DNA of 64,000 nucleotides, taken from positions 17,107 through 81,106 of the IMG/VR virus record IMGVR_UViG_3300018414_000007. One strand, 5' to 3'. A program made the translations under genes and the position numbers. Under the pieces are notes generated by a model. That model worked only from the letters and a program-made list of their open reading frames with translations. It was not told where the DNA came from and made no database searches. Position 1 is the stretch's first letter, and each line of letters opens with the position of its first letter. Shown piece after piece: positions 19,196 through 31,697 of this stretch. This DNA comes from a virus.

Positions 19196-21085
19196 ATTAT
19201 AGAAAGTAAAATAAATTTTGTAGGTCCAGAGGATTTATACAAAGAGGAAGGTAATCAACTATATGATCTAAAATCTATAGAAGATTGCCTTTCTTGGTTA
19301 AAGACATTATCATCAGTATCTTTAGATACAGAAACAGAAGGATTTTTTAATTTTAAGAATAAAATTATAATGCTTCAGTTATCTGACGGTAAAGAAGTTT
19401 GGGTGATAGATGTAAGAGGAAAAGAATACTATAATAAGTTAAAACCTGTATTAGAAAGTATTTTAGTATTAGGTCAAAATTTAAAGTTTGATTACAAATT
19501 CTTAAAATTTGAAGGAATAGAACTAAATAATATATATGATACATTCTTAGCTGAATGTGCTTTAACTAACGGTCTTACTGAAAGGCAATTAGGATTAGGA
19601 GCTATTGCTAAGAAGTATTTAGATGTTAATTTAGATAAATCTGTTAGAAATCAATTTATAGGATTAGAAGGTAAACCCTTTACATTCAAACAAATTATAT
19701 ATGGTGCAGAAGATGTACTGTATTTACATAAAATAAGAGAATTACAATTACAGAAAGCAGCAGAGTTAGATCTAGTAGATTATATACTATTAGAATGTCA
19801 AGCTTGTCTTGCAATCAGTGATATTGAATATAATGGTCTTGGATTTAATCCTCAAGCTTGGTTAGATTTAGCTAAAAAGGTAAATAGTAATATACCTCAG
19901 CTAGAATTAGAATTAGATCAGTTTATATTATCTGAACCAAAGAAGTATTATAAGTTTATTAACCAAACTCCTCAATTAGATATATTTGGAGGTGAAAGTA
20001 GAAGAGTATTAGTTGAATGGAGTAGTCCTACACAAATGCTTAAGCTACTTAAAGTAGTCTTAAATGATCCAAATTTAGAAAAGACTGAGGAAAAAGAAAT
20101 TGCTAAATATCAATTTGATTATCCATTTATTAGTAAATTCATAGATTATAAGAAAGAAGCTAAACTTGCTTCTACTTATGGTGAAGATTTTATTAAGTAT
20201 GTTAATCCTGTTACAGGTAGAATCCATAGTGATTTTTGGCAGATTCTAGTTACTAGTAGAGTTAGTTCTAATAATCCTAATTTACAAAACCTTCCAGCTA
20301 AAAATGATTATTTAAATTGTTTTGTAGCAGATAAAGGTAAGAAAATAATAGGTATAGATTACAAAGGACAAGAAGCAAGAATAGCTGCTTGTTTTAGTAA
20401 AGAAGCTACTTGGTTAGATGCTATTAAAGATGATAAAGACTTACATGGTGAAGTTGCTAAGCTTATGTTTAATATTACAGATGCTGAAGTAAGAAATAAA
20501 CCAGATTTTCTTAGAGGTAAATCTTATAGAGATATAGCTAAGAATATTAACTTTATGGCTTTATTTGGTGGTACTAAATGGAAGTTAAGTAAAATGCTTT
20601 TGTGTAGCTTAGATGAAGCTCAGGATCTATTAGACAGATACTTTTCTGCAACTAAGAACTTACAAGTATATTTAAATAAATGTGCTTCTTATGGCCTTAA
20701 AAGAGGTTATATAAGAAGTGGTAAACCATATAGTGCTATTAGATGGTTTGAGAATTGGAAAGAAAATTTAGATATTTATAAAGACTCTAAAATTATTGGA
20801 GAAATTACAAGAAACTGTTTTAATAGTCCAATTCAATCTACTGCAGCTATTACTACTAAATTAGCATTAATTAAACTAAGAGATTATATAAAAGATAATT
20901 CTTTGTCTAACAAAGTAAAGATTATTCATGTAGTTCATGATGCAATATATACTGAAGTAGATGATGATATTTGTAATGAATTTGCAGAAATTCAATCAAA
21001 TATAATGAAAAAGGCTGGTAAAGTATTCATACAAGATTTAATTATGGATACAGATATAACCATAGATATATATTGGAAAAAATAA
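19196..21085 (+). CDS. polA: DNA polymerase family A with 3'-5' exonuclease; non-AUG (ATT/ATA) start
   Basis: The frame is open from 19196 and includes ExoI DTET (19325). ExoII GQNLKFD, ExoIII YGAEDV, SSNNPNLQN, motif A IDYKGQEARI, motif B RDIAKNINF, motif C VHDAI. Confidence 0.92.
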   Translation: MIESKINFVGPEDLYKEEGNQLYDLKSIEDCLSWLKTLSSVSLDTETEGFFNFKNKIIMLQLSDGKEVWVIDVRGKEYYNKLKPVLESILVLGQNLKFDYKFLKFEGIELNNIYDTFLAECALTNGLTERQLGLGAIAKKYLDVNLDKSVRNQFIGLEGKPFTFKQIIYGAEDVLYLHKIRELQLQKAAELDLVDYILLECQACLAISDIEYNGLGFNPQAWLDLAKKVNSNIPQLELELDQFILSEPKKYYKFINQTPQLDIFGGESRRVLVEWSSPTQMLKLLKVVLNDPNLEKTEEKEIAKYQFDYPFISKFIDYKKEAKLASTYGEDFIKYVNPVTGRIHSDFWQILVTSRVSSNNPNLQNLPAKNDYLNCFVADKGKKIIGIDYKGQEARIAACFSKEATWLDAIKDDKDLHGEVAKLMFNITDAEVRNKPDFLRGKSYRDIAKNINFMALFGGTKWKLSKMLLCSLDEAQDLLDRYFSATKNLQVYLNKCASYGLKRGYIRSGKPYSAIRWFENWKENLDIYKDSKIIGEITRNCFNSPIQSTAAITTKLALIKLRDYIKDNSLSNKVKIIHVVHDAIYTEVDDDICNEFAEIQSNIMKKAGKVFIQDLIMDTDITIDIYWKK

Positions 21086-21103: not shown

Positions 21104-22747
21104 ATGCAAATAAGAAATAAAAAAAGAAAGGCATTAGAAGCAGAAATACAAAGAGAAAAAGACCCCAACTTTAACCCTGTAGAACATATAGTAGTAAACT
21201 CATTAGAGTATATTTTTGGTAAAGATCCTTCTGAATGGGGGATTTTATGTAAACCAATTGAAACTGTAGTTTCATATATGTGGGAAGAAAAGAAAAGAAA
21301 GCCTTTACATAAAAGGTTAAAACCTAAAAAGAATTTTCCTACTAATAGTCCTTCTACTAGTTTTGAACCAGTAAGCGTAACTTTTAGTTCAGGAACATCT
21401 ACAATAATATCTTCAACACCTAGTTGGGAATTAACAGAATCTTCTGATCAAGAAGAATCAATTGTAGATATTGAATTTGATGGAGAAGAATCTACTTCTA
21501 TTACTGATCATGGTGTAATTACAGCTACTGATGCACAAAAATTTAATTACTATACTCATGATGCTAAGTTGTCAAATCTTAATCTTGGAGAATTACAAGA
21601 GTATATAAATATATTATATAAGTATATTAATAAAGCTAACCAAAGAATAGAGCATTATAGTAATATAATGTTAACTAGTCCTAATCCTGCAATTAATGAA
21701 TTAAGAAACAGTTCAATTTCAAATAGAGACGAACTTCTTAATAAATTAAATCTTATTAAAATCTATATAAGTAATTTTAAAGAAAGTGTTGTTAAACAAC
21801 CATTAGAAGAGATAAATAAAAAGGAATCTTTTAATGATAAGATTAAACAGGGATTTAGATCTTTTTATTCAGCTACACTTGGATATCCTACTGTTATAAA
21901 GGGTTATATAATCAATGATAAAATATTTACTAATAATAGTGAATTAGCTTTATATGCAAGTACTAATAAAATACTTTGGGATCTTACAAAAATGATTTTA
22001 AGGGTTTCAAGATTCAATTATGAAACAAATGAAATTGAAACTAAAACTAAAATTGTTTCATTTAAACCTTTAAGTAAAGTTAAAGAAAGTTTAATACTTT
22101 CAGTACTACCTTTATTAGTAGATTTTAAAATCTGTTCATTTAAAAATAGTAACAATTTCTTTAATGATAAGATAGATAGAGAAAAGTTTCTTTATACTAA
22201 AACTCCATTTTGGAAAGTTAAAACAGTTAAATCCTTAATTGGTAAAAACAGATTAAGTAATTCCGTAGTTTCTATTGAAAATCCAGATAAAGGAGATGAA
22301 ATTTACTTTTTATTAGGTGATTGTAAAGTAGAAAATAAAGAACTTTGTGGTTATAGTATACCAATGGATAAGACTATAACTATAAATTCTATAGTAAAAG
22401 TAAAGGATAGTAAAATATCTAAATATAATTTAAAACAAGTAACAAATACAGAGGCTGAAGTTATCTCTATTAAACCAAATTCTTCTAGTAAAAAGATATC
22501 TAAGAATTCTAATAATCATAGATTGGATATTATAACTATTAGAAATAGATTTAAAGAGATGAAAGTCTATGCACAAGATCTAAAATTTATTAAAAACAAA
22601 TCAATTAAAACAAATGACAGCAGTATTAAAAAAGAAAGTGGTAATAAAGAGCCTTACCACGGAATCTCCAAAGACTGGTTTGAAAGTACAATCCAAAATA
22701 TCTACCAAAGTGAGTACATCCAATACACATCCAGTCCAAACTTCTAA
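21104..22747 (+). CDS. Large hypothetical protein
   Basis: 547-aa ORF; its 3' end overlaps the next gene. Confidence 0.7.
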   Translation: MQIRNKKRKALEAEIQREKDPNFNPVEHIVVNSLEYIFGKDPSEWGILCKPIETVVSYMWEEKKRKPLHKRLKPKKNFPTNSPSTSFEPVSVTFSSGTSTIISSTPSWELTESSDQEESIVDIEFDGEESTSITDHGVITATDAQKFNYYTHDAKLSNLNLGELQEYINILYKYINKANQRIEHYSNIMLTSPNPAINELRNSSISNRDELLNKLNLIKIYISNFKESVVKQPLEEINKKESFNDKIKQGFRSFYSATLGYPTVIKGYIINDKIFTNNSELALYASTNKILWDLTKMILRVSRFNYETNEIETKTKIVSFKPLSKVKESLILSVLPLLVDFKICSFKNSNNFFNDKIDREKFLYTKTPFWKVKTVKSLIGKNRLSNSVVSIENPDKGDEIYFLLGDCKVENKELCGYSIPMDKTITINSIVKVKDSKISKYNLKQVTNTEAEVISIKPNSSSKKISKNSNNHRLDIITIRNRFKEMKVYAQDLKFIKNKSIKTNDSSIKKESGNKEPYHGISKDWFESTIQNIYQSEYIQYTSSPNF

Positions 22748-23558
22748 AATTCCTACTTATCGTCCACAAGTAAGAAGTAGACATCCTTCACATAATGGAT
22801 TAAGGACATTATTAGCTAAATTACCTTTTAAATCTTTAATTAGATTTGGAAGTACTACCGAAGTAAATGATGGTATAAAAAGAGTAGAACTTAATTCTCC
22901 TGAAGCTATTAGAAAAAGTAGTAATAAACTACTTATGAAACAAAGCTTCTCTGAAGGTAATGTTAAAACAGCAGATTGGACTAATCAAGTTGCTAATGTA
23001 CCTGCAATTACAGAAAACTGGAAATATAAGTGTGTAATCAAAAAGCATTTTGGTAGTAGAGGTGAAGGTAATACTTTAGTATCTACTCAAAAGGAGTTTG
23101 ATTTGTTTATGAAGGGTAAAAGTGCTTCTGAATATATATTTGAGAGATTCTATAATTATGATAGAGAATACAGACTTCATGTAAATGAAGATGGTTGTTA
23201 TTATACTTGTAGAAAAGCATTAAAATCAGATACTCCAGAAAGCTCTAAATGGTTTAAAAATGATAGTAATTGTGTTTGGTATTTAGAAACTAATCCAAGC
23301 TTTGATAAACCAGTAAATTGGGATAGTGTTGTTAGTCAGAGTGTTAAAGCTCTTAAAGCAGTAGGATTAGACTTTGGAGCAGTTGATTTGAGAATTCAAT
23401 CAGCTAAAGATTCAAAAGGTAGAGTTAGGGAAGATCCTGACTTTATTGTAATTGAAATTAATAGTGCTCCAAGTTTGAATGATAGTGAAAGTATTGTATT
23501 TGCTAAATACTTAGAAGTACTTCCTACCATGTTAAAGAAAAAGTTTTTAAAAAGTTAA
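22614..23558 (+). CDS. ATP-grasp peptide/amide ligase
   Basis: SNKLLMK, FGSRGEG, REYRLHV, LDFGAVD and IEINSAP motifs. Confidence 0.9.
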   Translation: MTAVLKKKVVIKSLTTESPKTGLKVQSKISTKVSTSNTHPVQTSKIPTYRPQVRSRHPSHNGLRTLLAKLPFKSLIRFGSTTEVNDGIKRVELNSPEAIRKSSNKLLMKQSFSEGNVKTADWTNQVANVPAITENWKYKCVIKKHFGSRGEGNTLVSTQKEFDLFMKGKSASEYIFERFYNYDREYRLHVNEDGCYYTCRKALKSDTPESSKWFKNDSNCVWYLETNPSFDKPVNWDSVVSQSVKALKAVGLDFGAVDLRIQSAKDSKGRVREDPDFIVIEINSAPSLNDSESIVFAKYLEVLPTMLKKKFLKS

Positions 23559-23570
23559 TATAAAAGAATA

Positions 23571-24383
23571 ATGAATAAACATAAAAATTTTAAAGTATTT
23601 GTAGTAGGATTTAATACTGGCTACGCTAGGTGGATACAAGGTGAACTTGCTAAAAATATGAAAGAGGCTGATGTTGTTCTGTTTACAGGGGGAGAAGATA
23701 TTTCTCCCTCTTTATACGGAGAAACAGCTGGAAGACATACATTTCCCTATGATAGACCAAATGGTCAATTACCTTTAAGAGATGAATTTGAGGTAAGGAA
23801 TTATAAAGAAGCGTTAGAGTTAGGTAAACCTATGTGGGGTACTTGTAGAGGTGCTCAATTGTTATGTGCTTTAGCTGGTGGTAAATTAGTACAGGATATG
23901 AGTCATCATAGTTCTCATAAATTGTATTTCTATGATAATGAGTATGAGTGTGTAAGTAATACTTTACATCACCAAATGCAATATCCTTACACTATGAAAG
24001 ATGGTGAAGACTATAAAATCTTAGCTCATGCTATAGGTCAGAGCCCTTACTTCTTAGATGGTAATGATAAACCTCTTATTATGCCTGAAACAGTGAAAAA
24101 ACAAGGATATGCTAAACCTCTTATTAAAGAACCAGAGTTTGTATATTATCCTAAAATTAAATCTTTAGGTATACAAGGACATCCTGAAATGATGTCTACT
24201 AATAGTGATATGGTTTTAGTATGTCATGCATTTTTAAATCTTTTGATAGAGGATAAGTTAAATGATGCTCTCCTTTTAAATATTCCTGTTAAATCTATTA
24301 TAAGTAGAGCTTGGGATTTTAATTTTACAAAAGAAGAAAATGCATTATTAAATCAAATTAAAGAAGTCCCTATCGAGGTATAA
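23571..24383 (+). CDS. Class I glutamine amidotransferase / peptidase C26
   Basis: FTGGEDISP, GTCRGAQLL (nucleophile Cys), NTLHHQ and GIQGHPE (His-Glu). Confidence 0.9.
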   Translation: MNKHKNFKVFVVGFNTGYARWIQGELAKNMKEADVVLFTGGEDISPSLYGETAGRHTFPYDRPNGQLPLRDEFEVRNYKEALELGKPMWGTCRGAQLLCALAGGKLVQDMSHHSSHKLYFYDNEYECVSNTLHHQMQYPYTMKDGEDYKILAHAIGQSPYFLDGNDKPLIMPETVKKQGYAKPLIKEPEFVYYPKIKSLGIQGHPEMMSTNSDMVLVCHAFLNLLIEDKLNDALLLNIPVKSIISRAWDFNFTKEENALLNQIKEVPIEV

Positions 24384-24384
24384 A

Positions 24385-25014
24385 ATGAAAGAAGTAACAA
24401 TAGATAATATATTAGAGATTTTAAAAGAAGATATAGCAGGTTTAACTGAAGATAATAGAGAATCTACTATAGAAAAAATACAGTCTTATTTAATTAAATT
24501 TAGTTTCTTAACAAAAATTCCAAATATATTATTTGTTTATGGAAGCTTAAGAAAAGGAGAATTTAATTTTAAAAAGATTCAAGAAACTTTTGGGGAAAAT
24601 AGTATAATACATCTTTATCCTACAAGAGCAGATTATATGACTCTTTATGATTTAGGTGATTATCCTGTAATGATGAAGGCTAAAGGAACTTATCATACAT
24701 TTGGTGAATTAGTTTACTGTACTGATGAAGTAGTTGAAGTTATTAAACAAATGGAGTTAGAAGCAGGTTATCTATATGATACTTGTAATATATGGATTGA
24801 AAATAATAATAATCCATCTACAAAATATAGATTAATAAGTGTTCCTACTTATGTAGCAGGACCTCGCCTTAAAGATAAAATTTTCTTAAATCCAAGTACA
24901 TATCCAAGAATTACTTGTGGAGACTGGAAAAAGTATTTAAAATCTGTAGAAATAGAAGATACAAGAACTGATTTAGAAAAATTGCAAGAATCTTATTTTG
25001 GTTATTGCTACTAA
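24385..25014 (+). CDS. Gamma-glutamylcyclotransferase (AIG2-like)
   Basis: LFVYGSLRKGEFN, LYDLGDYP, GELV, LEAGY and ITCGDW motifs. Confidence 0.88.
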   Translation: MKEVTIDNILEILKEDIAGLTEDNRESTIEKIQSYLIKFSFLTKIPNILFVYGSLRKGEFNFKKIQETFGENSIIHLYPTRADYMTLYDLGDYPVMMKAKGTYHTFGELVYCTDEVVEVIKQMELEAGYLYDTCNIWIENNNNPSTKYRLISVPTYVAGPRLKDKIFLNPSTYPRITCGDWKKYLKSVEIEDTRTDLEKLQESYFGYCY

Positions 25015-25029
25015 ATTAAATATATATAA

Positions 25030-25869
25030 ATGAAAATAAAAATTGATAATTGGAAAATAGGTTCTGATCCAGAAGTTTTCCTTCATAATAAAAGTACAAA
25101 AGAAGTAGTATCTGCAATTCCCTTTATTCCGGGAGATAAACATGATCCATACCAAATACCTACATTACCAGAGGGTCATATGATTCAAACTGATAATATA
25201 ATGGTAGAGTATTGTTTACCTCCTACAAGTGATTATAGGGCTTTAATTAAGTCTTTTAGAGACTGTATAGCATATACTAATAATACTATACCAAGTGAAT
25301 TAGAAGTGGTTGTTAAAGCTTCTGCAAATGTAAGTGAACAATACTTACAAGATGAACAAGCTAAAAGATTTGGATGTGATCCAGATTTTAATGCTTGGAC
25401 AGATGATTTAAACAATCCTCCTAATAGTGATACTAATCTTAGAACTTGTGGTGGTCATATCCATATTGGCTATGATAATCCAGACTATGAACTTTCAAAG
25501 AAATTAATTAAAGCGTTAGATATATTTTTAGGTGTTCCATCTATTCTTTTAGATCCTGATAAAGATAGAAAGAAAATGTATGGTAAAGCTGGTGCACATA
25601 GGTTAAAAACTTATGGTGTAGAATATAGAGGTTTATCTAATTTCTGGTTGGCAGAAGAAGAATTAACTCAGTTAGTATTTAATGGAGTTAGAATGGCCAT
25701 TGCTATGATTAATAGTTCTGAATCTTACTTAGATAAGATGAGTGATACATTACAGTTAAAGATTCAAACTTGTATTAATACAGGAGACGAAGAGTTAGCT
25801 CAACAACTTGTACATCAACTTAGTTTATCTAGTTTATTGGCTGGTTCTACTAAAGTATATATTGACTAA
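25030..25869 (+). CDS. phiEco32-like COOH-NH2 ligase (type 2)
   Basis: IGSDPEVF, DNIMVEY, FGCDPDFNAW, RTCGGHIHIG, YGKAG and GVEYRGLSNFW motifs. Confidence 0.9.
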   Translation: MKIKIDNWKIGSDPEVFLHNKSTKEVVSAIPFIPGDKHDPYQIPTLPEGHMIQTDNIMVEYCLPPTSDYRALIKSFRDCIAYTNNTIPSELEVVVKASANVSEQYLQDEQAKRFGCDPDFNAWTDDLNNPPNSDTNLRTCGGHIHIGYDNPDYELSKKLIKALDIFLGVPSILLDPDKDRKKMYGKAGAHRLKTYGVEYRGLSNFWLAEEELTQLVFNGVRMAIAMINSSESYLDKMSDTLQLKIQTCINTGDEELAQQLVHQLSLSSLLAGSTKVYID

Positions 25870-25880
25870 TTAAAGAAACT

Positions 25881-25951
25881 TAAGAGTAGTGATAGCCTTG
25901 AGTTCGCTTTAGTTACTAATTTATTGGTAGCCTCCGGCTATCCTACTTTTA
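25881..25951 (+). ncRNA. Structured element upstream of the GATase start
   Basis: TAAGAGTAG-T-GATAGCC/GGCTATC-CTACTTTTA closing stem; inner GTTACTAA/TTGGTAGC hairpin. Confidence 0.5.
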
Positions 25952-25968
25952 AATTAAATAAAACAAAT

Positions 25969-26000
25969 ATGTGTGGATTAATATTTTGATGTGTGGATTA
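25969..26000 (+). repeat. Duplicated GATase start ATGTGTGGATTA (MCGL) x2
   Basis: Exact 12-bp direct repeat at 25969 and 25989, giving mini-ORFs MCGLIF* and MCGLYSLSLY*. Confidence 0.85.
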
Positions 26001-26015
26001 TATTCACTATCTTTG
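25985..26015 (+). promoter_or_regulatory. Bacteroidota promoter for the HNH gene
   Basis: TTTG-N19-TATCTTTG, ending 5 nt before ATG 26021. Confidence 0.65.
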
Positions 26016-26020
26016 TATTA

Positions 26021-26551
26021 ATGAAAATATGTAAAAAATGTAATGTTGAAAAATCTCTAGGAGAGTTTCACAAAGATAAAAGAACTAAGGATGGATTATA
26101 TAAATGGTGTAAATCTTGTAAAAAAGAGTATGATTTAATATACAGAAAAACAGATAAAATTCAAAATTTATATAAGTCTAAAGAGTATAGAAATAGAAAA
26201 AAGGAATATAAAAAATGGAGAGATATGACTGATCCAAGAGAACAACTTTTAATATCTGCTAAAGCTAGGGCTAAAAAGTATAATATACCTTTTAATTTAA
26301 CTATAGATGATATAGAATTAAGAGCTTATTGCCCTTTATTGGAAATTAAATTAGAAAGAAAACAATATGGAAAGGTGGGTTCATTTAATCCAAATTCCCC
26401 TTCTTTAGATAGAATAATTCCTAGTTTAGGTTATGTAAAAGGAAATATAGAGGTAATTTCAATGAAAGCAAATATAATGAAAAATAACGCAAGTATAGAA
26501 GAATTAAAAACATTTGCGAATAATATATTAAGGTGGTATGATTATGATTAA
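26021..26551 (+). CDS. HNH-type homing endonuclease with N-terminal Zn finger
   Basis: CKKC...CKSC, then CPLL and SPSLDRIIPSLGYVKGNIEVISMKAN. Confidence 0.85.
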   Translation: MKICKKCNVEKSLGEFHKDKRTKDGLYKWCKSCKKEYDLIYRKTDKIQNLYKSKEYRNRKKEYKKWRDMTDPREQLLISAKARAKKYNIPFNLTIDDIELRAYCPLLEIKLERKQYGKVGSFNPNSPSLDRIIPSLGYVKGNIEVISMKANIMKNNASIEELKTFANNILRWYDYD

Positions 26552-28142
26552 AATAATATTAATATTAGCATTTATAAATTATTTGCTATACTTCCTTAAT
26601 GGAAGAAAAAAGACTAATTTAGCTCTTTGTGGCTTAATTGGTTACTCTGGACAAGAGAACTATAATATAGACAAAATAAGGTTTCTAATGCTATGGAATA
26701 GTGTAGAAAGAGGTAAAGATGCTACAGGCATATATACCCCCTCAACAGGACTTATAAAAGATAATGAACCTGCTGGTAAGTTTCTATTTCAAAGTCATTT
26801 TAAAAAATTAGTTGATGATAATCAATTAATAGCTCATGTAAGAGCTAAAACAATTGGAGCAAATTTAGTTAAAAACGCTCATCCATTTGATGAAGAGAAT
26901 ATTGTATTAGCTCATAATGGTACTTTAGTTGACTATGTAGCGTTAGCATCCAAATATGATATGAAAGCTCTTAATTGGGATGTAGATTCTCAAGTATTAT
27001 CTTTTGGTATTAATAGAGCATTTAATGCTGAAACTACTTTAGATAACTTAAATATTGAAACTTTAAGTGAATATAAAGGTGCTGCTGCTTTACTATTTTA
27101 TAGTAAAAACTTAGATATGATATTTGTATTTAAGGATAAAGAGAGACCTTTATTTTATGGGTATGATCTTGATGGAGGAATGTATATGTCTTCTATTGAA
27201 GAGTCATTAAAAGCTGCAGGATTATTTGAAATTAAAGCGTTTACTGATAATACTTTGTATGCTATTGATCATGGTGAAATTGTAAAGACTTGGGTTTATA
27301 AAACCTATGCTGAACTTAATAAAACAGCTTATGTTGGTAAAGTTCGAGGGAGGGAACCAGGTCAGAGATTCCCAAAGTTAAAAAAAGGGGAAAGAGGAAT
27401 AGACATCACAAATGGAACCACTAAAGCATATTGGTTCTTAGATATGTGGCTATATTCTAATACCCAAACATGGAATCATCAAAGAGGAATCTATGGTAAG
27501 TTTGCTGAAATGAAAACTGGAAGGTTTTATTTAGTAACTGGATTCTATGCTGAAGATATAATGTTTGTTCAGGTAAAAGATGAGAATGGAAATGATGGAA
27601 TGGCAGCCTTAAGTTCATTTGATATAGATAGGTGTATTCCTCAACCTGAACAGTTATTTAGAATAACGGCTCCCCTTGTTGCTAAAAAGACAAAACAAAA
27701 ACTTTGGGAAAAAGGACAAATAGTTGAATTGATGAGTTATGATATAACAGAAGGATCAGTTTCTTTCTGGTCTGATTCAGAAAATGCAGAATACGAAATT
27801 CCTATGAAGTGTTGTAAACCATTAACACCTCAAGAAGTTATAGATTTCTGCTTAGAAACAGAAGATCCTAAAGATAAAGGAACTAAAGAACCATTACTTA
27901 TTCAACCCGCTCCTGAACCATCACCTTTTATAGAAAATACACCTGAGCCTGAACCTTTAGGAGATTTCATATCAACTCCAGTATTCTTGGGAGCTTTGGA
28001 ATTAATTGAAAGTGGATTAGGTAAATTAGAAGAAAAGTATGATGAAAATGGAGATTTAACCCCAGAAATTAATGCTATACGTATGGACATCACAAATTGC
28101 AAAGATAAGACATATCTTGACAACTTACTGGTACATAATTAA
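26538..28142 (+). CDS. Class II (Ntn) glutamine amidotransferase; catalytic Cys at 26628
   Basis: CGLIGYSG, RGKDATG, AHVRAKT, NAHPF, HNGTL and VDSQ motifs. Confidence 0.88.
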   Translation: MIMIKIILILAFINYLLYFLNGRKKTNLALCGLIGYSGQENYNIDKIRFLMLWNSVERGKDATGIYTPSTGLIKDNEPAGKFLFQSHFKKLVDDNQLIAHVRAKTIGANLVKNAHPFDEENIVLAHNGTLVDYVALASKYDMKALNWDVDSQVLSFGINRAFNAETTLDNLNIETLSEYKGAAALLFYSKNLDMIFVFKDKERPLFYGYDLDGGMYMSSIEESLKAAGLFEIKAFTDNTLYAIDHGEIVKTWVYKTYAELNKTAYVGKVRGREPGQRFPKLKKGERGIDITNGTTKAYWFLDMWLYSNTQTWNHQRGIYGKFAEMKTGRFYLVTGFYAEDIMFVQVKDENGNDGMAALSSFDIDRCIPQPEQLFRITAPLVAKKTKQKLWEKGQIVELMSYDITEGSVSFWSDSENAEYEIPMKCCKPLTPQEVIDFCLETEDPKDKGTKEPLLIQPAPEPSPFIENTPEPEPLGDFISTPVFLGALELIESGLGKLEEKYDENGDLTPEINAIRMDITNCKDKTYLDNLLVHN

Positions 28143-28152
28143 AGAATATATA

Positions 28153-29805
28153 ATGTTAGAAGAGATAAAAACAAAAGAAGAATTAAAAAACAAAAAAGAT
28201 TTTCTTTTAAAGAACCCATTTCATCCTAATAAGTTTATATACGCCGAAGAAGGAGAATCTCCTAAAGAGATTGTAATAATTAATGGAAGAGGATATGATG
28301 TAGATAAAAGTAATTTATCAGAAGATTTTTACCATCCTGGGTATTTCTTTTTGGCTGGAACAGGAGCAATGCTTGCGTTTGTTACTGCTACTAAAGCTAG
28401 AAGAGTGTTTGATCCAGAAAACCCTGAAACCTGGTGTCAAATAGTTTCTGAGTACAAACCTTCTAAAGAAAGGTATAAGAACGTTGAAACATCTGATTAT
28501 GAAACTTATAATGCTTCTCTTAAAAAGATTATTTCACAAGCTTATGGTGAATTAAAACCAGTATCTAATACAGAAGAGGAGTTATTAAACTTAAGTTTTG
28601 TAAAAGGAACTGTTAATCCTGATTTTTGGTTTCCTTTACAAGAAAAACAACATTTAGACAAGATGTTACCTTATAAAAAGTTTGAAAATATATATCACAA
28701 GGTTGATATAAATGATCTTGAGCATCAAATGAGATCTCAAGGATACCCAGAAGAAGAAATAAAGAAAAGAATAACAGAAGCTTTACAAAAGAATATTTTG
28801 TATGGTGTTGACTCTTTAACTTACACAGCTTTTGAAGGAATAAGATTTACATTTGGTGTTGAAATTGAGACTTGTATTGGAAGACTTGATGATGATCAAA
28901 TTAAATTTTTAAATGTTAAAGCAGTTCATGATGGTTCTCTAAGAGATAAAAATGGTAATACTCCTGGTGGAGAATATGTTACTGGTGTATTAACTGGAGA
29001 TGCTGGATTGACTCAATTAAGTGACTTATGTAGAGCTTTGTCTTCTAAATGTAGAGTAAATGCTCAGTGTGGAGTTCACGTTCATGCAGGAAGTTTAAAT
29101 TGGAATAGAGAAGATATTGTTTATTCTTATATTTTAGCAGAAATGTTAGAAGATGAGTTATTTATGATGCTTCCTAAATCAAGAAGAAGTAATACTTACT
29201 GTAGAAGATTAACTGAACTTACTTTAGATAAAGTTCCTTTGTTAAAAACAGCAGTTAGATCTGAATATAATATTCTTATAGATACAATCTATAATGATAT
29301 TTTGAAAGAAGTAACTCAAGTTAAAAATAAAGGTAAAATATATTCTGGAGTAGAAGAAGGAGTAGAAGAACCAATAATTGCTAGTGGGATTTATAACAGA
29401 GAAAAGCAACATCCAAATGGAGCTAAATGTGGTTATGATAAATCTGCACAAAGATATTGTTGGTTAAACTATGTTACTCTTATGTATAATACTAAAGGGG
29501 GTAAAAATAGTAACACTTTAGAGATTAGAAGTCATAGTGCTACAATGAATTTCAAAAAGATAAAGAATTGGATTAAGATTTTCTTTGCTTTTTGTAAGTA
29601 TGTAGAAACTAGTAAATCTAAGATTAGAAAAGGAAATGTAACTCTTGCTCATGTAATTAAAAAGGCATATCCTAAAACTGGAGATAAACTTCTTAAGTAT
29701 ATTGAAGAAAGAAAACAAGTGTTTAATTCTCATGATGAGTCTGTAGATTATGTAGAAATCTCAGAAGAAAGAAAGACTATAAAGGAGATAGTAGCAGCAG
29801 AATAA
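28153..29805 (+). CDS. Putative amidoligase (Amidoligase_2-type)
   Basis: TFGVEIET, HDGSL, GGEYVT, CGVHVH, RYCWLN and TLEIRSHSAT motifs; likely start MLEEIK at 28153. Confidence 0.88.
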   Translation: MLEEIKTKEELKNKKDFLLKNPFHPNKFIYAEEGESPKEIVIINGRGYDVDKSNLSEDFYHPGYFFLAGTGAMLAFVTATKARRVFDPENPETWCQIVSEYKPSKERYKNVETSDYETYNASLKKIISQAYGELKPVSNTEEELLNLSFVKGTVNPDFWFPLQEKQHLDKMLPYKKFENIYHKVDINDLEHQMRSQGYPEEEIKKRITEALQKNILYGVDSLTYTAFEGIRFTFGVEIETCIGRLDDDQIKFLNVKAVHDGSLRDKNGNTPGGEYVTGVLTGDAGLTQLSDLCRALSSKCRVNAQCGVHVHAGSLNWNREDIVYSYILAEMLEDELFMMLPKSRRSNTYCRRLTELTLDKVPLLKTAVRSEYNILIDTIYNDILKEVTQVKNKGKIYSGVEEGVEEPIIASGIYNREKQHPNGAKCGYDKSAQRYCWLNYVTLMYNTKGGKNSNTLEIRSHSATMNFKKIKNWIKIFFAFCKYVETSKSKIRKGNVTLAHVIKKAYPKTGDKLLKYIEERKQVFNSHDESVDYVEISEERKTIKEIVAAE

Positions 29806-31397
29806 TGTGTTTATTAATCGCAGTAAAGTCAGGAGTAGATAAGTCTAGTGACATCCTCTTTGACGCTATAAGAACAGGAGCTACTACTAATACAGATGGA
29901 ATTGGGTATGCATTTAAAAAAAGCAAACAAAATAAAATTTGGATTAGTAAAGGTTTTCAAGATGTAGATAAATTCATTACAACTCTACAAAAGAAGCACT
30001 TAAAACCAGAAGATGAACTTATTGTTCATTTAAGAATTGGTAATAAGGGTGCTAAAACTGTTGAAATGAATCATCCATTTGTTATATCTGATGATGCTGA
30101 TACAATTTTATCTAATGATGAATATGTACAGCTTCCAGTACTTGCACATAATGGTACTTTTCATAGTTACTCCATAACTAATAGTCAACTATCAGATACA
30201 TTCTATTTTACTAAAGACTTTATGTCTATTCCAGAAATACAAAGTCTTCTGAAAAGAGATACAGATACTTTTAAAAGAATCTTTACTTCTACACTGGGAA
30301 TTAATAGACTAGCTCTATTATTCCCAGATAATACTCCACTAATAACACTTGGTAACTTTATTGAATCAGAAGGATATTTATTTTCTAATGAATCATATAA
30401 GAAAAAGGTGTATAATGTTGGAGGATATGAAAGTTGGGATGATGAAAGGTATGCTACTAGTCGTGGTGGTGGACAAAATATATCTGATGGATGTTGGCAA
30501 AATGGAGTGTACCACAGTGGAAGTAAATACCCAGTAACACATTCTAGTATTCCAATTAATACTCCACATAAAGATACTAAATGGTTAGATAGAGATGATG
30601 AAGATGAAGATGTTGTTATTGCTAATAAGAAGTTTTGTAAAGTAGGAGAAAGAAAAAGAGATGTTAGGGGCTTTTTACAAGCTGATCCTAAGTTTGATAT
30701 TATTCCTCCAACAACTCCATTTTGGTGTATATTTAACAAAGCTACTAAACAATGGTATGATTCAACTGAAGGAAATATAGCTTATGTACCTCGTGCATAT
30801 CCTGTTAATCAGTTTGATAGAACATTCTTTACTCCAACAGTATTTAACTATACTCATTTCACCTATTATAGTCCAATAGGAGATTCAATAAAAGGGATAA
30901 ATCCTACAAAAAGATATCGTATTTATAACTTTGATTCTAGAGATCCTAGAGGAGCTACTTCAAAAGGTGTACATTTAGTTAATGAAATAAATTCTTATAA
31001 AAATGGTGAACCTCTTTATGGTACAACTGTTAGATCTTTGTGGTTAACTACTGAATCTTTAGTAGAACTATTTATACCTCAGTTAGAATCACCAAAACTA
31101 ACATTAGCTTATAGAACTCTCTATAGACTTATGCATAGATTTAGCACCCCTTCTAAGAATTTAATGAATGCTACTGAGAAAGCTATCAGAGGAGCTGAAA
31201 AGAATGGAAAAGAATCTAATATTAACTTTAAGAATCAACAAGGATTAGAGTTATTAGGATTGAAGTTATTCTATAATTATTTATTAATAGACCTTCTTCC
31301 TTTTGATCAAGCTAGATTGAAATTTCTTGAAGTTCAAGATTTAACTCCAGACAATACAGTTTCTTATAAAGAAGCTTTAGAAGCATTAAATAATTAA
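29805..31397 (+). CDS. Second class II (Ntn) glutamine amidotransferase
   Basis: N-terminal MCLLIA, NTDGIG, HLRIG, HPF, HNGT and SDT motifs. Confidence 0.88.
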   Translation: MCLLIAVKSGVDKSSDILFDAIRTGATTNTDGIGYAFKKSKQNKIWISKGFQDVDKFITTLQKKHLKPEDELIVHLRIGNKGAKTVEMNHPFVISDDADTILSNDEYVQLPVLAHNGTFHSYSITNSQLSDTFYFTKDFMSIPEIQSLLKRDTDTFKRIFTSTLGINRLALLFPDNTPLITLGNFIESEGYLFSNESYKKKVYNVGGYESWDDERYATSRGGGQNISDGCWQNGVYHSGSKYPVTHSSIPINTPHKDTKWLDRDDEDEDVVIANKKFCKVGERKRDVRGFLQADPKFDIIPPTTPFWCIFNKATKQWYDSTEGNIAYVPRAYPVNQFDRTFFTPTVFNYTHFTYYSPIGDSIKGINPTKRYRIYNFDSRDPRGATSKGVHLVNEINSYKNGEPLYGTTVRSLWLTTESLVELFIPQLESPKLTLAYRTLYRLMHRFSTPSKNLMNATEKAIRGAEKNGKESNINFKNQQGLELLGLKLFYNYLLIDLLPFDQARLKFLEVQDLTPDNTVSYKEALEALNN

Positions 31398-31436: not shown

Positions 31437-31697
31437 ATGGAAAATTTAGCATCAATCCTTATTGGTATAGCATTAATTGCAGCAGGAATACTGTCTTATT
31501 GGTTATTTAAACCAAAAGATAAGAAGTCTATAGATAGTAATACACCTATTGAAGTAGATGAAAAGAAAGCTGAAGTAACTGAAGCAATTGTGACAAAACC
31601 AAAGAGAGTGTATAAGAAAAAAGTAGCAAAAGAAGAGGAGATTAGTGGAGAAGGAGAAAGTTTACCAAGTACAACAGAAGGAGGACAGCAATCTTAG
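31437..31697 (+). CDS. Small membrane-anchored protein
   Basis: N-terminal transmembrane helix and a charged tail. Confidence 0.6.
   Translation: MENLASILIGIALIAAGILSYWLFKPKDKKSIDSNTPIEVDEKKAEVTEAIVTKPKRVYKKKVAKEEEISGEGESLPSTTEGGQQS

What the first reader, a model, noticed from the sequence alone, without database searches (positions are those of the whole stretch)
22614..31397. Seven-enzyme peptide/amide ligase cluster (phiEco32-like) in a crAss-like phage
Seen: contiguous ATP-grasp ligase, class I GATase/C26, gamma-glutamylcyclotransferase, COOH-NH2 ligase, Ntn-GATase, amidoligase and a second Ntn-GATase, placed between polA and nrdJ. Known: similar clusters were described computationally in phiEco32-like phages, and the product is uncharacterised as far as I know. 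Inference: three ligases plus glutamyl-removing enzymes look like a reversible glutamylation/amidation or small-peptide pathway. Candidate targets are the cell envelope (superinfection exclusion), a nucleotide, or a protein. A speculative link: RimK-type ATP-grasps glutamylate the bS6 C-terminus, which in Bacteroidota helps hide the anti-SD, so this cluster could enable the SD-led genes.
Basis: partly seen in the sequence, partly recalled or inferred. Interest (0 to 1): 0.75.

Follow-up and report, generated by a model that had tools for sequence, protein, structure and literature searches.

The report
Phage gamma-glutamyl amide-ligase gene module
A freshwater crAss-like phage carries an intact copy of a gene module, already known from many phages, that joins and cuts glutamate-type amide bonds, but what the module makes is still unknown.

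Summary
Window 22614-31397 encodes seven enzymes on the + strand with intact catalytic residues: ATP-grasp ligase, C26/class I amidotransferase, gamma-glutamyl(amine) cyclotransferase, COOH-NH2 ligase, Ntn amidotransferase, Amidoligase_2 and a second Ntn amidotransferase. An HNH endonuclease gene (26021-26551), not mentioned in the finding, interrupts the row.

It is not new as a kind. The same module lies in phiEco32, in LUZ24-like phages and in the crAss-like phages phi14:2 and cr108_1. Its marker ligase matches 318 deposited phage records. In 54 viral loci with full context, the ATP-grasp, COOH-NH2 ligase, first Ntn amidotransferase and Amidoligase_2 co-occur in 49. Nine literature searches found no experimental product.

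My reading: three ATP-dependent carboxylate-amine ligases work with enzymes that break gamma-glutamyl amides. These are PuuD/SpuA-like, YtfP/GGACT-like and PurF/GlmS/EgtC-like. Together they build and trim a gamma-glutamyl amide on an unknown amine during replication.

The ribosomal bS6 idea is not supported. The ATP-grasp is no closer to RimK than to other ATP-grasps, and most carriers infect Proteobacteria.

By-product: the first Ntn enzyme starts with a mobile hydrophobic leader linked to the HNH gene. An earlier scan note on this same window gave the lead for that.

The parts
22614..23558 (+). ATP-grasp carboxylate-amine ligase (AG), 314 aa, with a basic N-terminal tail and a conserved N-terminal motif (RSRHPSH)
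   Evidence: phrog_2599, 5.8e-36. Invariant or near-invariant K105, K143, E185/R187/H189, D253, E281/N283 in 33 sequences. PDB profile hits PurD, PurK, cyanophycin synthetase and Ddl.
23571..24383 (+). Peptidase C26 / class I amidotransferase-fold gamma-glutamyl hydrolase (C26), 270 aa
   Evidence: PF07722, 5.2e-17. Invariant C92, H204 and E206, read by me as the Cys-His-Glu triad, in 27 sequences. Best PDB relatives: Lin1909 (2e-19), 7d4r 'probable glutamine amidotransferase' (9e-12) and PuuD (2e-9).
24385..25014 (+). Gamma-glutamyl(amine) cyclotransferase, AIG2/GGACT type (GG), 209 aa
   Evidence: PF06094, 8.2e-13. Y52-G53 invariant and E124 near-invariant. PDB profile: YtfP 2e-24, YkqA 8e-16, AIG2-like domain-containing protein 1 7e-7.
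25030..25869 (+). phiEco32-type COOH-NH2 ligase (CN), 279 aa; the marker gene of the module
   Evidence: PF14395, 2.4e-16; phrog_3815, 8.5e-70. 40 invariant columns in 26 sequences. 2457 proteins at E <= 1e-5 in the large protein collection.
25969..26021 (+). Two overlapping truncated Met-Cys-Gly-Leu pseudo-starts (25969-25989 and 25989-26021); probably remnants of an older start of the Ntn gene
   Evidence: Read. The 12-base word occurs exactly twice in the window, both here. L011 has a like remnant at the same distance from its Cys codon (658 vs 659 bases).
26021..26551 (+). HNH / endonuclease VII-type homing endonuclease gene, 176 aa; an insert, not a pathway enzyme
   Evidence: phrog_1035, 1.6e-32, and phrog_3322, 2.6e-32. 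Absent at this place from the nearest relatives L004 and L005. No group I intron by Rfam.
26538..28142 (+). Class II (Ntn) glutamine amidotransferase-fold enzyme (N1). It has a 30-aa hydrophobic leader (26538-26627), catalytic Cys at 26628 and a poorly conserved C-terminal half.
   Evidence: PF13522, 1.6e-12. Invariant C31, R102, N127-G128 and D150 in 30 sequences. PDB profile: PurF 3e-20 and GlmS 6e-14, with the Cys aligned to chain residue 1. Leader statistics.
28072..29805 (+). Amidoligase_2, a glutamine-synthetase-like carboxylate-amine ligase (AL). Likely true start is 28153. The catalytic domain runs from about residue 255.
   Evidence: PF12224, 1.6e-12. Invariant E264, E266, H336, H338, R461, E484 and R486 in 32 sequences. 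The model (pLDDT 73) hits YbdK, gamma-glutamylcysteine synthetase, glutamine synthetase and PafA.
29805..31397 (+). Second class II (Ntn) amidotransferase-fold enzyme (N2), 530 aa. It starts Met-Cys. The Ntn domain is residues 1-203, followed by a disordered linker and a helical C-terminal part.
   Evidence: Invariant C2, R77, N116-G117 and D131 in 13 sequences. Model residues 1-203 are confident. Foldseek: GlmS glutaminase domain 5.5e-6, EgtC 1.5e-3, PurF.

Best explanation
This is an intact copy of the widespread, essentially phage-restricted phiEco32/LUZ24-type amidoligase module. It sits among the DNA replication and nucleotide-metabolism genes.

It combines three ATP-dependent carboxylate-amine ligases: an ATP-grasp, a GCS2-type COOH-NH2 ligase and a GS-type Amidoligase_2. 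With them are enzymes that bind a free glutamyl head group and break its gamma-amide bond: a GGACT-type cyclotransferase, a PuuD/SpuA-type C26 hydrolase and one or two PurF/GlmS/EgtC-type Ntn domains.

Most likely the module makes and then trims gamma-glutamyl amides on a cytoplasmic amine-bearing acceptor, in several steps. In this reading the glutamyl group serves as a temporary activating or protecting group, or glutamine serves as the nitrogen donor.

Shown: the genes, their intact catalytic residues, their co-inheritance and order, and their family relationships.
Inferred: the chemistry.
Unknown: the acceptor and the product. My rough split is free amine, polyamine or nucleotide-linked small molecule about 0.35; peptidoglycan precursor about 0.25; protein about 0.2; DNA base about 0.1; other about 0.1. 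It is not a RimK-type modifier of ribosomal protein bS6.
For: - Family assignments and conserved catalytic residues.
- Co-inheritance. Of 54 viral loci with at least 6 kb upstream and 7 kb downstream of the marker ligase, AG is present in 49, C26 in 47, GG in 31, N1 in 53, AL in 53 and N2 in 11. All six core genes are present in 29 and all seven in 7.
- Order. Neighbour pairs with a gap under 400 bases, counted over all 80 loci: N1-AL 65, CN-N1 55, C26-CN 45, AG-C26 21, AL-N2 18, GG-AG 16. L004 and L005 have exactly the window's order.
- Gamma-glutamyl chemistry. The C26 profile is nearest to Lin1909, 7d4r and PuuD, ahead of carbamoyl-phosphate and GMP synthetase amidotransferase subunits. The GG profile is nearest to YtfP, YkqA and AIG2-like domain-containing protein 1. 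N1 and N2 keep four invariant residues that I equate, from recalled PurF/GlmS residue roles, with the nucleophile Cys, the Arg and Asp that hold glutamine, and the oxyanion Asn-Gly. The AL model's best fold matches (YbdK, GCS, GS, 1-naphthylamine GS, PafA) are enzymes that activate the gamma-carboxyl of glutamate. That last property is established knowledge, recalled.
- Phage restriction. 318 of 50,697 phage records. Only 32 loci in genomes of 185,579 species; nearly all of these are MAG contigs and 25 of the 32 carry further module genes.
- Context. Flanking families are Sak4-like ATPase, UDG, PD-(D/E)XK nuclease, DnaB-like helicase and DUF1064. In the window they are polA, class II RNR, dUTPase, helicase, RecT-like protein, primase, RusA-like resolvase and exonuclease.
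Against: - No product, substrate or expression data exist. No RNA run is listed.
- AL and CN have no solved relative by sequence. AL's fold matches are weak (E 1e-3 to 0.1, TM 0.2-0.38).
- The 'ligase plus hydrolase' pairing rests only on gene adjacency. The gene order differs in LUZ24-like and phiEco32-like phages. GG was detected in only 31 of 54 loci and N2 in only 11 of 54, so these are dispensable or were missed.
- N1 and N2 could be true ammonia donors rather than hydrolases of gamma-glutamyl amides.
- N1 must lose its 30-aa leader to be active, and this is not shown.
- The genome-collection and viral-contig scans used two short peptide patterns, so the counts are lower bounds and are not comparable in depth.
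Confidence: 0.6

Rival explanations
1. Peptidoglycan-precursor modification. The ligases add or amidate residues on the stem peptide of cytoplasmic or lipid-linked precursors. This would block superinfection or prepare the wall for lysis. I read this proposal only as quoted in a 2025 phage paper, which credits Hardies et al. 2013.
For: - Passages of PMC11945000 call the LUZ24-type gene set a 'putative peptidoglycan modification module' able to make three unusual peptide linkages.
- Stem peptides contain a gamma-linked glutamate and carboxylates that are amidated by glutamine-dependent enzymes. MurT/GatD and AsnB-type enzymes are examples (recalled).
- The AG profile also matches D-Ala-D-Ala ligases at 2e-5.
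- 21 of 73 N1 genes have a membrane-helix-like leader.
- The Atlas structural neighbours of the N1 C-terminal half are SH3-type domains, the first being an NlpC/P60 endopeptidase cluster. TM is only 0.24-0.34, so this is a lead and no more.
Against: - No Mur-ligase, transpeptidase, flippase or signal-peptide protein appears among the recurrent neighbours, which are replication genes.
- I could not read the original paper: PMC3754069 is not held.
- The hydrolases resemble enzymes acting on gamma-glutamyl amines, not muropeptide amidases.
- The N1 leader must be cut off for activity, so it cannot anchor the mature enzyme.
Confidence: 0.2
2. Glutamine-dependent amidation. C26, N1 and N2 are glutaminase subunits that hand ammonia to the neighbouring ligases. 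The ligases turn carboxylates into amides on a nucleotide, a cofactor or a DNA base (hypermodification).
For: - N1's glutaminase domain is closest to PurF and GlmS, which are true amidotransferases.
- N1-AL are neighbours in 65 of 80 loci and C26-CN in 45 of 80.
- Passages of PMC8989533 report amidoligase and amidotransferase genes associated with thymidine-hypermodification genes in viral contigs.
- The module always sits among replication and nucleotide genes. In Leptolyngbya phage Lbo-JY46 it follows a PRPP synthetase gene.
Against: - PHROG scans of 20 neighbouring + strand ORFs between 13.4 and 41.4 kb, and of the 10 ORFs of the cluster region, found no hydroxymethylase, 5-hmdU DNA kinase or aGPT-Pplase-like protein.
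- N1 and N2 have no synthase domain of their own, and their C-terminal halves are poorly conserved.
- The cyclotransferase has no role in an ammonia-transfer scheme.
- The PRPP synthetase neighbour is a single case.
Confidence: 0.15
3. Protein modification. The ATP-grasp (and other ligases) add glutamate or short peptide tags to a host or phage protein, and the hydrolases reverse it. The first reader's bS6/anti-SD idea is a special case.
For: - Passages of PMC4431377 argue that phage ATP-grasp ligases of another clade may modify host proteins.
- PafA, a protein-tagging ligase, is among AL's fold matches.
- GGACT acts on epsilon-(gamma-glutamyl)-lysine (recalled).
- AG carries a basic N-terminal tail in the window and in L006, L055 and L073.
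Against: - AG is not specifically RimK-like.
- Carriers infect hosts across Proteobacteria, Bacteroidota and Cyanobacteria, so a Bacteroidota-specific ribosome role does not fit.
- No tag-like small protein recurs in the module.
- The residues that I read as holding a free glutamyl head group (see the main explanation) fit small gamma-glutamyl compounds as well as, or better than, protein tails.
Confidence: 0.1
4. Synthesis of a glutathione-like low-molecular-weight thiol or gamma-glutamyl cofactor tail. This would support the phage ribonucleotide reductase or folate-dependent nucleotide synthesis.
For: - The enzyme kinds mirror the gamma-glutamyl cycle (recalled): a GCS-like ligase, an ATP-grasp synthetase, a cyclotransferase and Ntn/C26 gamma-glutamyl hydrolases.
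- AL's top fold hits include YbdK and glutathione-synthesis enzymes.
- An RNR gene lies within the fetched flanks in 31 of 83 loci, and directly downstream in the window.
Against: - The module is common in phages of E. coli and Pseudomonas. These hosts already make glutathione (recalled).
- No glutaredoxin was found next to it in the ORFs scanned.
- The RNR proximity may only reflect the shared replication module.
Confidence: 0.05

Closest known systems
phiEco32 gene set phi32_77 to phi32_88 (Escherichia phage phiEco32, NC_010324) and the LUZ24-like / UFV-P2 set
   Same: It has the same families: COOH.NH2 ligase, amidoligase, Ntn 'aminotransferase', ATP-grasp labelled 'S6 glutaminyl transferase' and gamma-glutamyl cyclotransferase. 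It lies next to primase/helicase. CN is 35% identical over 76% of the query.
   Different: The gene order differs (CN, AL, N1, AG, GG). There is no second Ntn paralogue in the annotation. The hosts are Proteobacteria and the virus families are different. Function is untested there too, as far as my searches show.
Cellulophaga phage phi14:2 g037-g041 and uncultured phage cr108_1 (both Crassvirales, Steigviridae, Asinivirinae)
   Same: These are crAss-like phages with GG-AG-CN-N1-AL (phi14:2) or AG, C26, CN, N1, AL (cr108_1). In both the module lies between the primase and UDG genes in the replication module. The components are already labelled in GenBank.
   Different: No N2 is annotated and there is no HNH gene before N1. 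AL is only 26% identical to the window's. The window and its relatives L004 and L005 add C26 and N2 and have the order AG-C26-GG-CN-N1-AL-N2.
Gamma-glutamyl-amine pathways of bacteria: PuuA/PuuD in E. coli and the PauA/SpuA type in Pseudomonas (pathway roles recalled)
   Same: A GS-like ligase makes a gamma-glutamyl amide on an amine and a C26 hydrolase later removes the glutamyl group. The window's C26 profile hits PuuD at 2e-9. AL's fold hits include GS-like amine ligases such as 1-naphthylamine GS.
   Different: Those are catabolic host pathways with oxidation steps between ligation and hydrolysis. No oxidoreductase recurs in the phage module. The phage has three ligases of three folds. No sequence-level orthology of AL or CN to PuuA was found.
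Ergothioneine EgtA/EgtC and butirosin BtrJ/BtrG (gamma-glutamyl as a temporary group; pathway roles recalled)
   Same: A ligase adds a gamma-glutamyl group that is later removed by a class II amidotransferase-fold hydrolase (EgtC) or an AIG2-type cyclotransferase (BtrG). The N2 model matches EgtC at E 1.5e-3.
   Different: None of the other enzymes of those pathways (sulfoxide synthase, methyltransferase, carrier protein, PLP enzymes) is present. The resemblance is in logic and is not evidence of membership.
RimK, the bS6 poly-glutamate ligase
   Same: It has the ATP-grasp fold and adds glutamate. RimK is the source of the inherited PHROG/GenBank label.
   Different: The AG profile scores RimK entries at E 2e-3 to 1e-2, against 1e-8 for PurD and PurK. 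No RimK Pfam model hit at E 0.01. AG has its own conserved N-terminal motif.

Membership tests
phiEco32-type phage amidoligase module | PF14395 COOH-NH2 ligase present above Pfam's cut-off | tested here: met
   60.2 bits against a cut-off of 25; phrog_3815, 8.5e-70.
phiEco32-type phage amidoligase module | Co-located Amidoligase_2, Ntn amidotransferase, ATP-grasp and AIG2/GGCT genes | tested here: met
   All are present within 8.8 kb on one strand. The same set is in phiEco32, phi14:2 and UFV-P2. AG, CN, N1 and AL co-occur in 49 of 54 full-context loci.
phiEco32-type phage amidoligase module | Carried by tailed phages inside the early/replication gene block | tested here: met
   The terminase matches crAss-like phages. 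The neighbours are replication genes.
Class II (Ntn) glutamine amidotransferase domain (N1 and N2) | Nucleophile Cys plus conserved Arg, Asn-Gly and Asp for glutamine binding and the oxyanion hole (residue roles recalled from PurF/GlmS) | tested here: met
   N1: C31, R102, N127-G128 and D150 are invariant in 30 sequences, and the Cys aligns to residue 1 of PurF and GlmS chains. N2: C2, R77, N116-G117 and D131 are invariant in 13 sequences, with fold hits to GlmS, EgtC and PurF.
Class II (Ntn) glutamine amidotransferase domain (N1 and N2) | The Cys must be the free N-terminal residue of the mature protein | tested here: inconclusive
   N2 starts Met-Cys, so ordinary Met removal suffices. N1 has 30 residues before the Cys and no Met next to it. 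Self-cleavage is plausible, by recalled analogy with the B. subtilis PurF propeptide, but it cannot be tested with these tools.
Peptidase C26 / class I amidotransferase | Cys-His-Glu catalytic triad in the nucleophile-elbow and His-x-Glu motifs | tested here: met
   G90, C92, G94, H204 and E206 are invariant in 27 sequences. Pfam 62.8 bits against a cut-off of 20.5.
AIG2 / GGACT gamma-glutamyl(amine) cyclotransferase | N-terminal Tyr-Gly-Ser-Leu-type motif and catalytic Glu (roles recalled) | tested here: met
   Y52 and G53 are invariant; L55 and E124 are at least 90% conserved in 25 sequences. Pfam 49.4 bits against 22.8. YtfP at 2e-24.
Glutamine synthetase / GCS carboxylate-amine ligase superfamily (AL) | GS-like catalytic fold with conserved metal- and phosphate-binding Glu, His and Arg | tested here: met
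   Amidoligase_2 at 48.3 bits against a cut-off of 22. E264, E266, H336, H338, R461, E484 and R486 are invariant. The catalytic part of the model has pLDDT 90 or more. The top Foldseek hits are all from this superfamily, but they are weak (E 1e-3 or worse).
RimK (ribosomal protein bS6 glutamate ligase) | Closer to RimK than to other ATP-grasp families | tested here: not met
   RimK entries score E 2e-3 to 1.3e-2 against 1.2e-8 for PurD and 4e-8 for PurK. No Pfam RimK-type model hit at E 0.01.
RimK (ribosomal protein bS6 glutamate ligase) | Acts on the C-terminus of bS6 | not testable with these tools
   This needs proteomics of infected cells.
Intron-borne homing endonuclease (group I intron) for the HNH insert | Group I intron RNA core around the endonuclease ORF | tested here: not met
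   No Intron_gpI match in window 25800-26750 even at E <= 10. The same tool finds a group I intron inside the AL gene of L064 at 50.8 bits.
Thymidine hypermodification gene clusters (5-HMUDK / aGPT-Pplase type) | dUMP hydroxymethylase, 5-hmdU DNA kinase and aGPT-Pplase genes near the amidoligase genes | tested here: not met
   None was found among the 30 window ORFs scanned with PHROGs between 13.4 and 41.4 kb. Small ORFs and the rest of the genome were not scanned.

The most novel reading that the evidence does not exclude
In this module the gene of the first Ntn amidotransferase has been invaded at its very first codons by a cassette made of an HNH homing endonuclease gene and a short hydrophobic leader. 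The cassette cuts off the old Met-Cys start, leaving Met-Cys-Gly stubs upstream. It keeps the enzyme alive by giving it a new start codon and a propeptide that ends exactly before the catalytic Cys, which the Ntn enzyme must cleave off itself. This would be a protein-level counterpart of a self-splicing intron or intein. Leader-only alleles, which differ from near-identical sister phages by an indel of about 70 to 100 bases, would be the cassette after loss of the endonuclease, or its footprint spread by recombination.
Probability: 0.4. Interest if true: 0.65.

Novelty: new member of a known kind. Interest (0 to 1): 0.42.

Why it matters
The module is one of the larger conserved enzyme sets of tailed phages whose product is unknown. 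It has six or seven enzymes. It is found in hundreds of cultured phages of E. coli, Pseudomonas and Vibrio and in crAss-like phages, yet it is almost absent from cellular genomes. This implies a phage-specific biochemical need during replication.

This window adds three things:
- a seven-gene variant in a freshwater crAss-like phage;
- evidence that the non-ligase enzymes are all of the gamma-glutamyl-amide-cleaving kind, which narrows what to look for (gamma-glutamyl amines, release of 5-oxoproline);
- a clear argument against the ribosome idea.

The open question is best attacked in phiEco32 or LUZ24, not in this uncultured phage. The window itself therefore adds little testability.

If the mobile leader on the Ntn enzyme is confirmed, it would show a new way for a selfish endonuclease gene to sit inside an essential reading frame without an intron or intein.

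Tried and rejected
- Near-identical DNA in deposited phages: none found.
- Close relatives of N1 in viral contigs by peptide patterns: none. Relatives were then reached through an alignment of CN homologues.
Gene contexts of the closest CN homologues (77-78% identical, P0004-P0007) could therefore not be seen.
- Sequence-profile searches of solved structures with AL and CN gave nothing usable.
- Complex prediction of AL (160-577) with N1 (31-534): no verdict, score 0.00. This counts neither for nor against binding.
- Sequencing runs: no RNA holder is listed. There were two DNA rows, one of which may be the source sample.
- Group I intron around the HNH gene: rejected.
- Reading the pseudo-starts as a 5' exon: considered, because joining them to the body would restore Met-Cys-Gly-Leu-Ile-Gly. 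Rejected as unnecessary, because 19 leader-type genes have neither an HNH gene nor a pseudo-start.
- Atlas search with the N1 C-terminal half: only weak SH3-like structural neighbours (TM 0.24-0.34).
- PRPP synthetase as a recurrent neighbour: seen once and not among the recurrent flanking families.
- Papers not held: the 2009 amidoligase survey and the phiRIO-1 paper. What I say of them comes from citations in other papers and from recall.
Annotation tables of crAss-like phage surveys may already list this module.
- Rows dropped: L001-L003 (two GenBank records and the window's own locus) were left out of the 80-locus counts. N1 genes shorter than 200 residues after the Cys were left out of the tree, so 71 of 73 were kept. 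Short ORF fragments were left out of the alignments by length cut-offs, and only part of each family was aligned: 30 of 64 N1, 32 of 66 AL, 33 of 64 AG, 27 of 81 C26, 25 of 49 GG, and 13 of 13 long N2, in each case counting the window.

Full report
WHAT IS THERE. The window is bases 17107-81106 of an 81-kb viral record. Its large terminase resembles those of Cellulophaga phage phi14:2, Flavobacterium phage FpV4 and Bacteroides crAss-like phages, so 'crAss-like' is right.

Between 22614 and 31397 the + strand carries eight ORFs:
- ATP-grasp ligase, AG (phrog_2599, 5.8e-36)
- Peptidase_C26 / class I amidotransferase, C26 (5.2e-17)
- GGACT/AIG2 cyclotransferase, GG (8.2e-13)
- phiEco32-type COOH-NH2 ligase, CN (PF14395, 2.4e-16; phrog_3815, 8.5e-70)
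- an HNH/endonuclease VII gene (phrog_1035, 1.6e-32)
- class II (Ntn) amidotransferase, N1 (GATase_6, 1.6e-12)
- Amidoligase_2, AL (1.6e-12)
- a 530-aa protein that starts Met-Cys, N2. It has only a sub-threshold GATase_4 match and no PHROG.

The class II ribonucleotide reductase follows at 31645. PolA lies at 19370-21085. A 547-aa ORF without any family match lies between polA and AG.

ARE THE ENZYMES INTACT? Yes. I aligned each protein with relatives from 80 viral loci.
- AG keeps the two ATP-binding lysines, the Glu-x-Arg-x-His stretch and the Glu-x-Asn metal site. It also has a family-specific N-terminal motif.
- C26 keeps Cys92, His204 and Glu206.
- GG keeps the Tyr-Gly motif and Glu124.
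- CN has 40 invariant columns.
- AL keeps two Glu, two His, two Arg and a further Glu.
- N1 keeps Cys31, Arg102, Asn127-Gly128 and Asp150. A profile of it aligns that Cys to residue 1 of PurF (3e-20) and GlmS (6e-14).
- N2 keeps Cys2, Arg77, Asn116-Gly117 and Asp131. Its model is confident for residues 1-203 and matches the GlmS glutaminase domain (5.5e-6), EgtC and PurF.

HOW COMMON IS IT? CN has 2457 relatives at E <= 1e-5 in the large protein collection.

I called ORFs in these 80 loci and labelled them with profiles grown from the window's proteins. 54 loci have at least 6 kb upstream and 7 kb downstream of CN. Among these, AG is present in 49, C26 in 47, GG in 31, N1 in 53, AL in 53 and N2 in 11. 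All six core genes are present in 29 and all seven in 7.

The commonest order is (GG) AG C26 CN N1 AL (N2). L004 and L005 match the window exactly. Neighbour pairs over all 80 loci are N1-AL 65, CN-N1 55, C26-CN 45, AG-C26 21, AL-N2 18 and GG-AG 16. Recurrent flanking families are replication and recombination genes.

Among deposited phages, CN matches 318 of 50,697 records. These are mostly Pseudomonas (121) and Escherichia (94) phages, then Vibrio, Aeromonas, Proteus, Salmonella and others. The crAss-like phages cr108_1 and phi14:2 are among them. Their GenBank annotation already names most of the parts.

In one genome for each of 185,579 species the same patterns found only 32 loci. Nearly all are MAG contigs and 25 carry further module genes. 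The module is therefore essentially a phage property.

WHAT IS KNOWN? I read the following as passages.
- A LUZ24-like genome paper lists amidoligase, glutamine amidotransferase, ATP-grasp, a PF14395 protein and an AIG2 protein side by side (PMC3890496).
- A TC6 paper names them in a figure legend (PMC6209634).
- A 2025 paper calls the set a 'putative peptidoglycan modification module', citing Hardies et al. 2013 (PMC11945000).
- The thymidine-hypermodification paper notes amidoligase and amidotransferase genes next to hypermodification genes in viral contigs (PMC8989533).

The 2009 survey of amidoligases and the phiRIO-1 paper are not held. I know the survey from citations and from recall. 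Nine searches found no experiment on the product and no text on the module in crAss-like phages. Supplements were closed.

HOW DOES IT MOST LIKELY WORK? The three ligases belong to three folds that all activate a carboxylate with ATP and join it to an amine.

AL's model (pLDDT 73; catalytic part 90 or more) finds only glutamine-synthetase-superfamily enzymes, all weakly: YbdK, gamma-glutamylcysteine synthetase, glutamine synthetase, 1-naphthylamine GS and PafA. In the characterised members the activated group is the gamma-carboxyl of glutamate (established knowledge, recalled).

The four other enzymes all recognise a glutamyl head group.
- The C26 profile is nearest to Lin1909, 7d4r and PuuD, ahead of the amidotransferase subunits of carbamoyl-phosphate and GMP synthetases.
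- GG is nearest to YtfP, YkqA and AIG2-like domain-containing protein 1, which I take to be human gamma-glutamylamine cyclotransferase (recalled).
- N1 and N2 keep the residues that I equate with those holding the alpha-amino and alpha-carboxyl groups of glutamine in PurF and GlmS (recalled).

I therefore read the module as a multi-step path in which gamma-glutamyl amides are made on an amine-bearing acceptor and later cut. The cut is made by hydrolysis or by cyclisation to 5-oxoproline. Alternatively the amidotransferase-fold proteins give ammonia to the neighbouring ligases. The steady N1-AL and C26-CN adjacency fits either version. A complex prediction for N1 with AL gave no verdict.

The acceptor is unknown. 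The replication-module context, the absence of envelope genes among recurrent neighbours and the amine-type hydrolases make me lean to a soluble amine, polyamine or nucleotide-linked compound. The peptidoglycan-precursor proposal remains a serious rival.

THE RIBOSOME IDEA. The label 'ribosomal protein S6 glutaminyl transferase' is inherited annotation. The AG profile scores PurD and PurK at about 1e-8 and RimK entries at 2e-3 to 1e-2. The module is most frequent in phages of Proteobacteria. Inside the cluster only two starts have an SD-like word at usable spacing. I give this link under 5%.

In the window the catalytic Cys is preceded by 30 residues: a hydrophobic helix, then a few basic residues. 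There is no Met next to the Cys.

Upstream of the HNH gene stand two overlapping Met-Cys-Gly-Leu stubs (25969 and 25989). My reading differs.
- 21 of 73 N1 genes have such a leader of 24-36 residues. The other 52 have Met directly before the Cys.
- All invariant catalytic residues are kept in the 12 leader-type sequences I aligned.
- On a tree of 71 glutaminase domains the leader needs at least 13 gains or losses, and at least 9 are forced by well-supported branches.
- Near-identical sister phages differ at exactly this spot by an indel of about 70 to 100 bases (L073 vs L081 and L067 vs L063).
- Only the window and L011 have an HNH gene directly before N1. Only these two keep a Met-Cys-Gly stub, 659 and 658 bases before the real Cys codon.
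- Rfam finds no group I intron here, though it does find one inside AL of L064.

So the gene is probably whole. It would be translated from a new start, and the enzyme would have to remove the leader itself, as some class II amidotransferases do with their propeptides (recalled: B. subtilis PurF). That the HNH gene and leader form one mobile cassette is my inference, at about 0.4.

VERDICT. Interest is moderate, because the open question is old and better attacked in cultured carriers.

Noticed in passing
window 25969-26630; L011 11931-12590; L073 vs L081; L067 vs L063: The first Ntn amidotransferase has either a Met-Cys start (52 of 73 genes) or a 24-36 aa hydrophobic leader ending right before the Cys (21 of 73). 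The leader flips at least 13 times on the tree. Near-identical phages differ here by an indel of about 70 to 100 bases. Only the two loci with an HNH gene directly upstream also keep a truncated Met-Cys-Gly pseudo-start 658-659 bases upstream.
   Followed up: partly
L064 13010-13459: A group I intron (Rfam RF00028, 50.8 bits) splits the Amidoligase_2 gene of a related phage into ORFs of 299 and 112 aa.
   Followed up: no
L016, L044, L061, L063, L064, L074 (coordinates): In six related loci the C26 gene is split into two ORFs by an HNH-type gene on the opposite strand. Rfam found no intron there at the gathering threshold. The module seems to be a hot spot for homing endonucleases.
   Followed up: partly
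window 21104-22747: A 547-aa ORF lies between polA and the ATP-grasp gene and overlaps the latter by 134 bases. It has no Pfam or PHROG family. Its only homologue among the loci is in L004, at the same place. It may belong to the module in this clade or to replication.
   Followed up: partly
window 22614-22790 and relatives L006, L055, L073: The ATP-grasp protein has a Lys/Ser/Thr-rich basic N-terminal tail in some phages. A nearly invariant N-terminal motif (RSRHPSH) precedes the ATP-grasp core in most of the 33 aligned sequences. Its function is unknown.
   Followed up: no
window 25881-25951: A long inverted repeat (stem about 13 bp) lies in the spacer between the COOH-NH2 ligase gene and the pseudo-starts. 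I did not fold it.
   Followed up: no
15 of the 80 viral loci, for example L022 8572-9369: A further conserved ORF family of about 265 aa, without a Pfam match, sits between the ATP-grasp and C26 genes (20 ORFs in 15 loci, 15 of them inside the module). It is absent from the window. cr108_1 and phiEco32 also have unnamed ORFs inside the module.
   Followed up: partly
L002 (Leptolyngbya phage Lbo-JY46) 147-9721: In this cyanophage the module follows directly after a PRPP synthetase gene and a SNO-type amidotransferase gene. It is a single case.
   Followed up: no
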